DNA from: Escherichia coli
GTDB lineage: Bacteria; Pseudomonadota; Gammaproteobacteria; Enterobacterales; Enterobacteriaceae
Reading direction: 5' to 3' (one strand)
NCBI RefSeq assembly: GCF_003991155.1
Contig: NZ_CP031293.1
DNA length: 64,000 bases
This document shows positions 23,501-26,084 of this stretch, one piece after another (the first letter of the stretch is position 1; each line of letters starts with the position of its first letter). Position numbers: made by a program.

Positions 23501-26084
23501 GACTCCACAAAACGCCTTTGTAGTAATACCTGACTGCAATATCTGGTCGATCTCGTCGCAGTCACCTACCCGATACGCCTTTGAGGCTGTTTACCAGACT
23601 GGATATCGCCAGTTTGGGAGGATAGTTAATTAACAAATGGACGTGATCTGGTTCGCCATCCATTTCAACCAGTTCAGCTTCAAAATCAGCACATACATTT
23701 GAAAAGTAAGTGCGTAGTTTTTCTGTCGCGTCATGGTCAAAAATCTGGCGTCGGTATTTGGGACAAAGACCAGGTGAACATGCATCAGGAAAACACAATG
23801 CCTTCCACGCCGGATATCGGTTTCTTTTTTCACAGACCAAAATATAATTTGACCTGTGAAACGACTACAGGCATTTAAATTCCAGTTAAGACCCGGTGGT
23901 CAACAGGAGCATGAAATGAGGCGCTTCGCAGGCGCATGTCGTTTCGTTTTCAATCGTGCTCTGGCGCTTCAGAATGAGAATCATGAGGCCGGTAATAAAT
24001 ACATCCCTTACGGGAAAATGGCTTCCTGGCTGGTTGAGTGGAAAAACGCCACTGGAACGCAATGGCTTAAAGATTCTCCCTCACAGCCATTGCAACAGTC
24101 ACTGAAAGACCTTGAGCGGGCTTACAAAAACTTCTTCCAGAAGCGGGCTGCTTTTCCCCGATTCAAAAAGCGGTGACAGAATGATGCATTCCGCTATCCG
24201 CAGGGCGTTAAGCCCGCTCAGGAAAACAGCCGTATTTTTCTGCCAAAACTTGGCTGGATGCGCTACCGGAATAGCCGTCAGGTCACGGGTGTTGTGAAAA
24301 ATATCACGGTCAGCCAGTCCTGTGGTAAGTGGCACATCAGTATTCAGACAGAAAGTGAAGCATCAACTCCGGTTCACCCTTCAGCATCAATGATCGGGCT
24401 GGATGCTGGCGTGGGTAAACTCGCCACGCTGTCAGATGGCACAGTCTTTGAGCCTGTAAACAGTTTTCAGAAAAACCAGAAGACGCTGGCGAGACTTCAG
24501 TGACAGTTAAGCCGCAAGGTCAAATTCAGCAATAACTGGCAGAAGCAGAAACGCAAAATACAGCGACTGCATTCCCGTATCGCAAATATCCGCAGGGACT
24601 ACCTTCACAAAGTCACAACGACCGTCAGCAAAAACCACGCAATGATAGTCATTGAGGATTTGAAGGTCAGCAACATGTCAAAGTCAGCAGCGGGTACGGT
24701 CAGCCAGCCGGGGCGCAATGTCCGGGCAAAATCAGGTTTAAACCGTTCGATACTGAATCAGGGCTGGTATGAAATGCGCCGCCAGCTTGAGTACAAGCAG
24801 CTCTGGCGTGGCGGTCAGGTGCTTGCTGTTCCGCCAGCGTACACAAGCCAGCGTTGCGCGTGCTGTGGTCATACAGCGAAAGAAAATCGCCTGTCACAAA
24901 GTAAATTCAGATTCCAGGTATGTGGATATACAGCGAACGCCGATGTAAACGGCGCTCGTAACATTTTAGCGGCGGGGCACGCCGTTCTTGCCTGTGGAGA
25001 GATGGTGCAGTCAGGCCGCCCGTTGAAGCAGGAACCCACCGAAATGATTCAGGCGACAGCCTGAACGTAGCAGGGATCCTCGTCCTTCAGGGCGTGGAGG
25101 ATGTCAAGCTGATTCATCTATGTCGAGACGAGCAAGGAAATTACGAATTCCTTCGCGTGACAAAAATTGCGCAACTTTTTCCCGCTCACTGTGAGTCATG
25201 TTGTCTATTGCGCTGATGATTTGCCGATAAGCAGGAGTGCGAATCCCCGGTGCGTATTCGGCAAGGGGTTCTTCGGCTTCCAGAAGCATCGGCGTGTTAT
25301 GGAAGGCTGGCGTGTTCTGAATAAACTCGCAAACTTGCGTATCGACCAGAATAAGTCTGGCACGACCGCCTTTCACGCCGGGAAATTTTTCCGTTTTCCA
25401 GCCTTTTTCTCTGATCCAACGGTTAACAGTTTGTTTAGCCACACCGAGGCATTCAGCCAGTTCTTCGGTGGTCATTTTATTGCGTAATCTTTTCATATTA
25501 TTTGCTATCGCGAATCCCTAAGCGTTGTAATAATCCGATAATCCCTTCCCGCAGAAGCAAGGATGTAAACTGTTTTTGTTCAACTGGCGTCATCTCTTTC
25601 GCCAGTGTCACCAGCAACACTTCAAGCGGCGCATCACCAGACAGGGCAGGCGTTTCTCCCTGACTTTCCGGACGTTCAGCATTGCGAATATATTCACGAA
25701 CCTGTTCATTGACGTGAACCAGTCGGGCTTTGCCACCCTGGACGCCTGGTTTTGGTGACGTTGTCCAGCCTTCCTTGCGTACCCATTTATTAATGGTCTG
25801 GCGGCTATAGCCGGTCAGTCTGGCAAGTTCATCTGGCGTCATCCTCTCCTTGAACATAACAATTCCCTGAATGTATGTGGGTCTATTAGTAGTTCATTTT
25901 ATAACACCACTTTACAGGAAACCGTGACATGAATAACTACTGAATGCGAGCGGTTTTCCAAAATTGTTCATTTGCCTGATTTTTCAGCGATTGAAACTAC
26001 ACGTTGCAATTTGCCGTTGACACATTCGGGCGGAATTCATATGATGCCGCCCGTCAACTCGACAAGCTTTACGTGACGGGGCTA

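What the first reader, a model, noticed from the sequence alone, without database searches (positions are those of the whole stretch)
23562..24503. All three lesions in the IS genes are in-frame TGA codons in the same G-TGA-C context
tnpA is broken only by TGA at 23562-23564 (minus strand). tnpB is broken only by TGAs at 24174-24176 and 24501-24503. Reading frame is otherwise preserved across about 1.6 kb, with no frameshifts. Each stop is preceded by G and followed by C; UGA-C is the weakest termination context in E. coli. Two readings are possible: recent nonsense decay (for example CGA to TGA transitions), or low-level readthrough that still yields some full-length protein. The second is speculative.
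Basis: inference. Interest (0 to 1): 0.5.

Follow-up and report, generated by a model that had tools for sequence, protein, structure and literature searches.

The report
Decaying IS609 copy with three TGAs
The three in-frame TGA codons are real, but they are ordinary nonsense mutations of different origin and age in a dead copy of the E. coli insertion sequence IS609, which carries further inactivating damage, so their shared context is best read as coincidence.

Summary
The window is 100% identical to E. coli 2016C-3878. Positions 23361-25107 are an IS609 copy (IS200/IS605 family) inserted after a TTAT between gltX and yfeD. All three TGAs exist and all sit in G-TGA-C. The claim that they are the only lesions is wrong. 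tnpA also has a 1-nt deletion after 23761 and an ATG>ATT start change. tnpB also has Cys353>Phe in a zinc-ribbon CxxC and other private missense changes. The TGAs replace three different codons by three different substitutions: TTA Leu96 (T>G), GGA Gly107 (G>T) and CGA Arg216 (C>T). Their ages differ: the tnpA TGA is in 2,599 of 5,426 complete genomes, including K-12, while the tnpB TGAs are in 52 and 41 genomes, nearly nested. Under a uniform model the shared context is unlikely (about 1e-3 post hoc). However, 11 other independent nonsense events found in 132 further IS609 copies are TAA x4, TAG x5 and TGA-T x2, with no TGA-C. The K-12 copy, whose only tnpA lesion is this TGA, is reported not to transpose. 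Verdict: stepwise pseudogene decay, already annotated as such, with no support for functional readthrough.

The parts
23357..23360 (+). TTAT target tetranucleotide immediately 5' of the IS left end. In the empty site its TTA is the complement of the yfeD TAA stop.
   Evidence: TTAT is conserved next to the left end at five different insertion sites, while the sequence further out differs. The empty site in strain 536 reads TTAT|GCTGATT.
23361..25107 (.). IS609 copy (IS200/IS605 family), 1747 bp, with no terminal inverted repeats.
   Evidence: It is 97-98% identical to copies at other loci, one annotated 'IS609 family transposase'. Limits were set by comparing flanks. It is the only copy in the window.
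23377..23396 (+). Left-end subterminal hairpin (CCCCGTCC-TTCA-GGGCGGGG).
   Evidence: DNA fold of 23366-23406: -11.6 kcal/mol, z = -3.2. The core CGTCCTTCAGGGCG is shared with the right end.
23361..23848 (-). tnpA remnant (Y1 HUH transposase), inactivated three times.
   Evidence: The reconstructed ancestral protein matches PF01797 (E 3.4e-42) and NF033573 (147.5 bits against a cutoff of 55). PGAP note: 'frameshifted; internal stop'.
23846..23848 (-). Start codon ATG changed to ATT.
   Evidence: 23846 is A in the window and in phylogroup-F-type copies L009-L011, and C in the eight others.
23761..23762 (-). 1-nt deletion between these bases (codon 30, ACC>CC), a frameshift inside the Y1_Tnp domain.
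   Evidence: Alignment. The exact 31-mer of this allele is found in 212 genomes and 297 places, including a second copy in the same genome.
23562..23564 (-). tnpA codon 96 TGA, derived from TTA (Leu) by T>G. It lies upstream of the catalytic Tyr135.
   Evidence: A Leu is aligned at this position in solved TnpA relatives 2f4f and 2ec2. The TGA 31-mer is in 2,599 genomes and 3,142 places; the TTA 31-mer is in 2,530 genomes and 4,458 places.
23856..25064 (+). tnpB (insQ-type RNA-guided nuclease) pseudogene. The frame is intact, with two internal TGAs.
   Evidence: NF040570 scores 368.6 bits against a cutoff of 100. Full-length near-identical proteins carry PF12323, PF01385 and PF07282. PGAP note: 'internal stop'.
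24174..24176 (+). tnpB codon 107 TGA, derived from GGA (Gly) by G>T. It precedes all RuvC catalytic residues.
   Evidence: The exact 31-mer is in 52 genomes, including IAI39 and CE10.
24501..24503 (+). tnpB codon 216 TGA, derived from CGA (Arg) by C>T. It lies between the RuvC-I Asp and the RuvC-II Glu.
   Evidence: The exact 30-mer is in 41 genomes, of which 40 also carry the codon-107 TGA. An Arg is aligned at this position in the solved relative 9yyg.
24912..24914 (+). tnpB codon 353 TGC>TTC (Cys>Phe), the first Cys of the second CxxC of the zinc ribbon.
   Evidence: It is private to the window among 127 copies. The CxxC is aligned with the CxxC of the solved relative 9yyg.
25077..25098 (+). 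Right-end imperfect subterminal hairpin.
   Evidence: It shares a 14-nt core with the left end. The fold is weak, -4.5 kcal/mol with a T/T mismatch.
25104..25106 (-). Stop codon (TGA) of the neighbouring gene yfeD, supplied by the last bases of the IS.
   Evidence: The yfeD ORF is 25104-25496 on the minus strand. The empty site of strain 536 ends on TAA.

Best explanation
This is a non-functional, vertically inherited copy of IS609 at the gltX-yfeD site in an E. coli lineage related to IAI39 and CE10. It has been losing its two genes step by step.

Shown:
- The three TGAs are independent single-base nonsense mutations of three different sense codons (TTA, GGA, CGA), made by three different substitution types.
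- The tnpA TGA is an old allele present in about 40% of scorable IS609 copies across E. coli, including K-12.
- The tnpA 1-nt deletion is younger (212 genomes).
- The tnpB Gly107 stop is younger still (52 genomes), and the Arg216 stop arose inside that clade (41 genomes).
- The copy also lost the tnpA ATG and a zinc-ligand Cys in TnpB.
- None of the three IS609 copies in this genome has an intact tnpA.

Inferred:
- Once tnpA was dead there was no excision, so nothing maintained TnpB in this copy, and it drifted.
- The identical G-TGA-C context comes from the flanking codons that happened to be there. It is a coincidence, not a recoding signal.
- Any readthrough product would be vanishingly rare and still defective.
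For: - Ancestral codons and substitution types.
- Extra lesions: frameshift and start loss (PGAP note); Cys353Phe and six more private missense changes against two private synonymous ones in tnpB. That ratio is near the neutral 3:1, while the population-wide tnpB N:S is 192:177, which indicates purifying selection.
- Allele ages. 40 of the 41 TGA2 genomes fall within the 52 TGA1 genomes.
- CE10's copy at the same site shares the tnpA TGA, the frameshift and the first tnpB TGA. It has decayed further, with an IS4 insertion and a tnpB frameshift.
- Survey of 120 metagenome and 12 genome copies: 11 other unique nonsense events are TAA x4, TAG x5 and TGA x2 (both TGA-T), with no TGA-C. This is close to the 39/37/24% expected.
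- In the same genome, the ydcO-site copy has tnpA Tyr76 TAT>TAA.
- Variants private to TGA-bearing tnpA copies have N:S 11:4 plus one stop (neutral is about 3:1). They include catalytic Tyr135Ser and His23Pro.
- No Rfam family, including SECIS-type elements, was found at E<=1 near any of the TGAs.
- Literature: the K-12 IS609 transposase gene has a stop codon and shows no transposition (PMC2891674); 0 IS609 insertions among 758 IS insertion events in mutation-accumulation lines (PMC5009759).
Against: - Under a uniform mutation model, three nonsense events all in G-TGA-C have probability 4-6e-5, and about 1e-3 for any shared 5-mer.
- A post hoc 3/3 versus 0/11 contrast with other copies gives Fisher p of about 0.003.
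- No direct measurement of readthrough or of protein exists for this strain.
- The tnpA TGA allele is surprisingly common and occurs at several insertion sites, usually with an otherwise open frame. Pure decay does not by itself explain this.
Confidence: 0.9

Rival explanations
1. Functional leakiness: UGA-C is read through by Trp-tRNA often enough that this copy still makes some full-length TnpA and TnpB.
For: All three stops are UGA followed by C. From my own knowledge (Poole, Brown & Tate 1995, listed in the reference list seen) this is the weakest four-base stop signal in E. coli. UGA readthrough by Trp-tRNA competing with RF2 is described in PMC10570021. The tnpB frame is otherwise open.
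Against: - tnpA has a frameshift and no ATG, so readthrough cannot restore it.
- tnpB needs two readthrough events. At about 1e-2 to 1e-3 each (my own estimate), that is 1e-4 to 1e-6 of normal output.
- The product would carry Trp at Gly107 and Arg216, plus Cys353Phe in a zinc ligand.
- Private tnpB changes look unconstrained, at 7 N: 2 S.
- K-12's copy, with only the tnpA TGA, does not transpose.
Confidence: 0.02
2. Historical filter: the genes are dead now, but leaky UGA-C stops were less harmful when they arose. They were therefore more likely to persist than TAA or TAG stops, which would explain the shared context.
For: The nominal improbability of the shared context. The tnpA TGA allele reached high frequency, usually as the only lesion.
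Against: - The other 11 unique nonsense events in IS609 copies show no excess of TGA (2 of 11, against 24% expected) and no TGA-C at all.
- Several of them are common: Tyr76 TAA in 8 copies, Glu62 TAA in 6, Gln144 TAG in 12.
- tnpB had no obvious selective value in a copy whose tnpA was already dead.
- The sample of three was chosen after seeing the pattern.
Confidence: 0.06
3. The tnpA TGA allele is kept because the 95-residue truncated TnpA, or rare readthrough, damps transposition. This would be a regulatory or domesticated variant rather than a dead gene.
For: The allele is in 3,142 places at six or more different left flanks. It coexists with TTA at the same sites. TnpA acts as a dimer whose active sites combine residues of both subunits (my own knowledge of ISHp608 TnpA), so a truncated subunit could interfere.
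Against: - Variants private to TGA copies are at the neutral N:S ratio.
- Secondary lesions accumulate: frameshift, Glu9 stop, His23Pro, Tyr135Ser.
- TTA copies look equally unconstrained, at 16:4.
- The spread across loci can be explained by ectopic gene conversion. The window copy shares a block, 23758-24055, with the yajI-site copy of the same genome.
Confidence: 0.03
4. The TGAs are sequencing or assembly errors.
For: None specific.
Against: Each allele recurs in 41 to 2,599 independently assembled complete genomes.
Confidence: 0.005

Closest known systems
IS609 of E. coli K-12 (ydcL-ydcO site; tnpA remnant called yncK, tnpB called insQ/ydcM)
   Same: It is the same element at about 97.4% identity, with the same divergent tnpA/tnpB layout and the same TTAT target. 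It has the identical Leu96 TGA in tnpA. It is reported as inactive because of a stop codon in the transposase gene (PMC2891674).
   Different: In the K-12 copy the TGA is the only tnpA lesion and insQ is intact. The window copy sits at another site (gltX-yfeD). It adds a tnpA frameshift, start-codon loss, two tnpB stops and a zinc-ligand substitution.
IS200/IS605-family elements with solved proteins (ISHp608 TnpA, 2a6m; ISDra2 TnpB, 8h1j/8exa)
   Same: The HUH motif and catalytic Tyr are aligned in TnpA. In the printed alignment to the closest solved TnpB-type nuclease (9yyg), the RuvC D/E/D residues and the CxxC...CxxC zinc ribbon are aligned; ISDra2 TnpB matches at E about 5e-56. Other shared features are subterminal hairpins instead of inverted repeats, insertion 3' of a short target, and no target duplication.
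   Different: The relationship is distant, visible only at the protein level. The genes are divergently arranged, as in IS605 (my own knowledge), rather than in tandem as in ISHp608. Here both genes are pseudogenes.
Programmed stop-codon readthrough or selenocysteine recoding at UGA
   Same: Only the codon (UGA) and a weak +4 base (C).
   Different: The stop is not conserved across homologues. There is no constraint downstream, no SECIS or stimulatory RNA family hit, and additional frame-destroying lesions.

Membership tests
IS200/IS605 family (IS609) | Y1 HUH transposase TnpA | tested here: met
   The reconstructed ancestral TnpA matches PF01797 at E 3.4e-42 and NF033573 at 147.5 bits, cutoff 55. 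The HUH motif and Tyr135 align with solved TnpAs. In the window the gene is disrupted.
IS200/IS605 family (IS609) | TnpB (OrfB) RuvC/zinc-ribbon protein | tested here: met
   The window protein, with X at the two stops, scores 368.6 bits on NF040570, cutoff 100. Near-identical full-length proteins carry PF12323, PF01385 and PF07282. It is homologous to ISDra2 TnpB at E about 5e-56.
IS200/IS605 family (IS609) | Subterminal hairpins at both ends and no terminal inverted repeats | tested here: met
   The left-end hairpin is 23377-23396 (-11.6 kcal/mol, z -3.2). The right end has the same 14-nt core in an imperfect hairpin.
IS200/IS605 family (IS609) | Insertion 3' of a fixed short target, without target-site duplication | tested here: met
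   TTAT precedes the left end at five sites, and there is no repeat at the right end. The empty site is TTAT|GCTGATT.
IS200/IS605 family (IS609) | Nucleotide identity to the element named IS609 | tested here: met
   It is 97.8% identical over the whole element to a copy whose tnpA PGAP names 'IS200/IS605-like element IS609 family transposase'. ISfinder itself was not available.
Programmed UGA readthrough / recoding | The in-frame stop is conserved among homologues | tested here: not met
   The tnpA TGA is in 3,142 places against 4,458 for TTA. The tnpB TGAs are in 52 and 41 of 5,426 genomes.
Programmed UGA readthrough / recoding | Purifying selection on the coding sequence downstream of the stop | tested here: not met
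   Variants private to TGA copies downstream of the stop are 5 N: 3 S, including Tyr135Ser. Window-private tnpB variants are 7 N: 2 S, including a zinc-ligand Cys. The counts are small.
Programmed UGA readthrough / recoding | Downstream stimulatory RNA element or SECIS | tested here: not met
   No Rfam family at E<=1 lies near any of the three TGAs, on either strand, in 22800-26600.
Programmed UGA readthrough / recoding | Full-length product or activity | not testable with these tools
   There is only indirect literature evidence: the K-12 IS609 with the same tnpA TGA does not transpose.

The most novel reading that the evidence does not exclude
The Leu96-to-UGA allele of IS609 tnpA always sits in the leaky G-UGA-C context. 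It is carried by about 40% of scorable copies at six or more chromosomal sites, including K-12. The novel reading is that it is not simply a dead allele but a tolerated or selected attenuator. Either rare Trp readthrough gives a trickle of transposase, or the 95-residue fragment poisons TnpA dimers, and this helped TGA-bearing elements persist and spread between loci.
Probability: 0.04. Interest if true: 0.5.

Novelty: already known. Interest (0 to 1): 0.1.

Why it matters
It matters little. It documents one more IS pseudogene and shows that a striking-looking codon-context coincidence dissolves once homologous copies are compared. Three by-products are mildly useful. First, the K-12-type tnpA stop is a species-wide, multi-locus allele. 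Second, tnpA of IS609 is independently inactivated many times while tnpB stays under purifying selection. That fits my recollection, not checked here, that TnpB genes commonly persist without a partner TnpA. Third, this genome retains no intact IS609 transposase.

Tried and rejected
- The search for homologous proteins with consensus TnpB. I hoped to see truncated fragments that mark premature stops. Only the 120 best hits, all full-length, were returned, so it was useless for that purpose. It served only to confirm the domain architecture.
- The repeat finder with exact 6-nt seeds did not detect the end hairpins because of a G-T pair and a mismatch. I replaced it with a DNA fold and an alignment of the two ends.
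- Poole et al. 1995 could not be read. The statement that UGA-C is the weakest stop signal therefore rests on my own knowledge.
- A common mutational cause was rejected. The three events are T>G, G>T and C>T, at different positions of the pentamer, and no Dcm (CCWGG) site is involved.
- Selenocysteine was rejected: no SECIS-like hit.
- Sequencing error was rejected: the alleles recur in many genomes.
- Linking the left and right flanks of metagenome contigs to assign alleles to loci was unreliable, because many contigs join flanks of different sites. Only left flanks, about 200 nt from codon 96, were used.

Full report
**What is there.** The window region is 100% identical to E. coli strain 2016C-3878 (NZ_CP029747). 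Between the convergent genes gltX (21891-23306, +) and yfeD (25104-25496, -) lies one copy of IS609, an IS200/IS605-family element.

- Comparison with copies at four other chromosomal sites sets the limits. A conserved TTAT lies at 23357-23360, immediately outside the left end. The element body is 23361-25107, ending ...GATGTCAA.
- There is no target duplication. The empty site in strain 536 reads TTAT|GCTGATT.
- Both ends share the core CGTCCTTCAGGGCG within subterminal hairpins.
- tnpA runs on the minus strand from 23848. tnpB runs on the plus strand, 23856-25064.
- The reconstructed TnpA matches Pfam Y1_Tnp (E 3.4e-42) and NCBIfam NF033573. TnpB matches NF040570 at 368.6 bits.
- In alignments to solved relatives, the HUH motif and catalytic Tyr of TnpA are in place. 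So are the RuvC Asp/Glu/Asp and the CxxC...CxxC zinc ribbon of TnpB.

- Eight of the other eleven genome copies aligned have one more base after window 23761, completing codon 30 (ACC). The window lacks it. The first 29 codons (MKKETDIRRGRHCVFLMHVHLVFV) are therefore out of frame with the rest (KYRRQIF...HVHLL...).
- The ATG used in the other copies is ATT here (23846-23848).
- PGAP describes the identical record as tnpA 'frameshifted; internal stop' and tnpB 'internal stop'.
- tnpB has no frameshift, but it has private missense changes. These include Cys353Phe (24913 G>T) in the second CxxC of the zinc ribbon, and Ala187Gly three residues after the RuvC-I Asp.

**Which codons the TGAs replace.**

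| Gene and codon | Ancestral codon | Substitution |
|---|---|---|
| tnpA codon 96 | TTA (Leu) | T>G |
| tnpB codon 107 | GGA (Gly) | G>T |
| tnpB codon 216 | CGA (Arg) | C>T |

A Leu is aligned at codon 96 in solved TnpA relatives, and an Arg at codon 216 in the closest solved TnpB-type relative. The sense codons are therefore ancestral. There are three different source codons and three different substitution types, at different positions of the pentamer. This excludes a common mutational mechanism. The flanking G and C are simply the last base of the preceding codon and the first base of the following one.

**Ages.** I searched exact 30-31-mers centred on each lesion in 5,426 complete E. coli genomes.

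| Allele | Genomes | Places |
|---|---|---|
| tnpA TGA (codon 96) | 2,599 | 3,142 |
| tnpA TTA (ancestral) | 2,530 | 4,458 |
| tnpA 1-nt deletion | 212 | 297 |
| tnpB Gly107 TGA | 52 | 54 |
| tnpB Arg216 TGA | 41 | 41 |

- The tnpA TGA occurs in K-12 at ydcL-ydcO, at the yedK site, at yajI and at gltX-yfeD.
- The 1-nt deletion is also in the yajI-site copy of this same genome.
- The Gly107 TGA set includes IAI39 and CE10.
- 40 of the 41 genomes with the Arg216 TGA also carry the Gly107 TGA.

The lesions therefore accumulated one after another. CE10's copy at the same site shows a further stage, with an IS4 insertion and a tnpB frameshift.

**Is the shared context more than chance?** I enumerated all 240 one-step nonsense paths in the ancestral genes. 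G-TGA-C accounts for 3.3-3.9% of them.

- Three hits have probability 4-6e-5.
- Any identical 5-mer context three times has probability about 1e-3.
- TGA-C three times has probability 6e-4 to 1.2e-3.

That is nominally unusual, so I tested the only biological explanation on offer, preferential survival of leaky stops. I fetched 120 further IS609 copies from metagenomes with a conserved 32-mer. I called lesions in these and in 12 genome copies. The 11 other unique nonsense events were:

- TAA x4: tnpA Glu9, Glu62, Tyr76; tnpB Gln5.
- TAG x5: tnpA Gln144; tnpB Gln10, Gln208, Gln284, Gln399.
- TGA x2: Arg102 and Trp159, both followed by T.

This is close to the expected 39/37/24%, with no TGA-C. 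In the same genome, the ydcO-site copy has tnpA Tyr76 TAA. There is thus no general bias. One of the three 'events' is a common inherited allele, and the pattern was noticed post hoc. I read it as coincidence.

**Selection.**

- Across copies, tnpB variants are 192 non-synonymous to 177 synonymous, against a neutral expectation of about 3:1. TnpB is therefore generally under purifying selection.
- The window's private tnpB changes are 7 non-synonymous plus 2 stops against 2 synonymous, which indicates relaxed constraint.
- For tnpA, variants private to TGA copies are 11:4. Variants private to TTA copies are 16:4. Both are about neutral. Older shared variants are 24:20.
- tnpA is also broken independently by at least three other stops and by deletions of 1 and 5 nt.
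- All three IS609 copies of this genome have a dead tnpA. Two keep an intact tnpB.

**Readthrough.**

- For tnpA, readthrough cannot matter in this copy, because of the frameshift and the lost start.
- For tnpB, two readthrough events would be needed. The product would carry Trp at two conserved positions and lack a zinc ligand.
- No SECIS or other RNA family lies near the stops.
- For the TGA-only K-12 copy, the literature reports a stop codon in the transposase gene with no transposition (PMC2891674). It also reports zero IS609 insertions among 758 IS insertion events in mutation-accumulation lines (PMC5009759).
- That UGA-C is the weakest E. coli stop signal is my own knowledge of Poole et al. 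1995. I could not open that paper.

**Verdict.** This is an ordinary, already annotated IS pseudogene. The decay reading is right.

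Noticed in passing
window 25104-25109 and 23357-23360; L133 430-445: IS609 inserted exactly at the yfeD stop codon. In the empty site (strain 536) the TTA of the TTAT target is the complement of the yfeD TAA stop. After insertion YfeD keeps its sequence (last Ala GCA>GCT) and terminates on a TGA supplied by the last bases of the IS (T-TGA-C). The insertion also lies in the T-tract of the gltX terminator hairpin (23325-23356).
   Followed up: yes
window 23307-23420 (minus strand); L003, L004: The IS609 tnpA frame has no stop codon inside the element. 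It reads through the left-end hairpin into whatever flanks the copy; here it would end at 23307, beside the gltX stop. PGAP flags such copies as 'missing C-terminus'. Twelve sampled copies carry Gln144 CAG>TAG, which would give a compact 143-aa TnpA ending just after the catalytic helix.
   Followed up: partly
IS609 copies at the ydcL-ydcO, yedK, gltX-yfeD, yajI and other sites (L002-L132): The tnpA Leu96 TGA and TTA alleles coexist at the same insertion sites in different strains, and the TGA occurs next to six or more different left flanks. The window copy shares a block of variants (23758-24055, including the frameshift) with the yajI-site copy of its own genome, but not with CE10's copy at the same site. 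This suggests ectopic gene conversion between IS copies, or mobilisation of defective copies in trans.
   Followed up: partly
window 24937-25118: Sub-threshold Rfam hits to HgcC (20.1 bits, E 0.14) and sot0042 (16.3 bits, E 0.41) cover the 3' end of tnpB and the right end. This is where the TnpB guide (omega) RNA is expected. The only window-specific change in this stretch is 24913 G>T. Two intact TnpB genes elsewhere in the genome could in principle load this RNA.
   Followed up: no
L013-L132 (metagenome contigs): Many metagenome contigs join the left flank of one IS609 site to the right flank of another, for example a yedK-site left flank with a ydcO-site right flank. These are either assembly chimeras across the repeat or real IS-mediated rearrangements.
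   Followed up: no
L011 (CE10), equivalent to window 24042-24149 and 23361-23385: CE10's copy at the gltX-yfeD site has an IS4 inserted near the left end, in the 3' part of tnpA. It also has a dense patch of about 15 substitutions plus a 1-nt deletion within about 100 bp of tnpB. The patch looks like a short recombination tract from a more divergent relative rather than point decay.
   Followed up: no
L135 17781-19503 and L009 2611-4361 (same genome as the window): The genome has three IS609 copies. All three tnpA genes are inactivated, in partly different ways (Tyr76 TAA; frameshift plus TGA; start loss plus frameshift plus TGA). Two tnpB genes are intact. This fits maintenance of TnpB without a working transposase.
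   Followed up: yes
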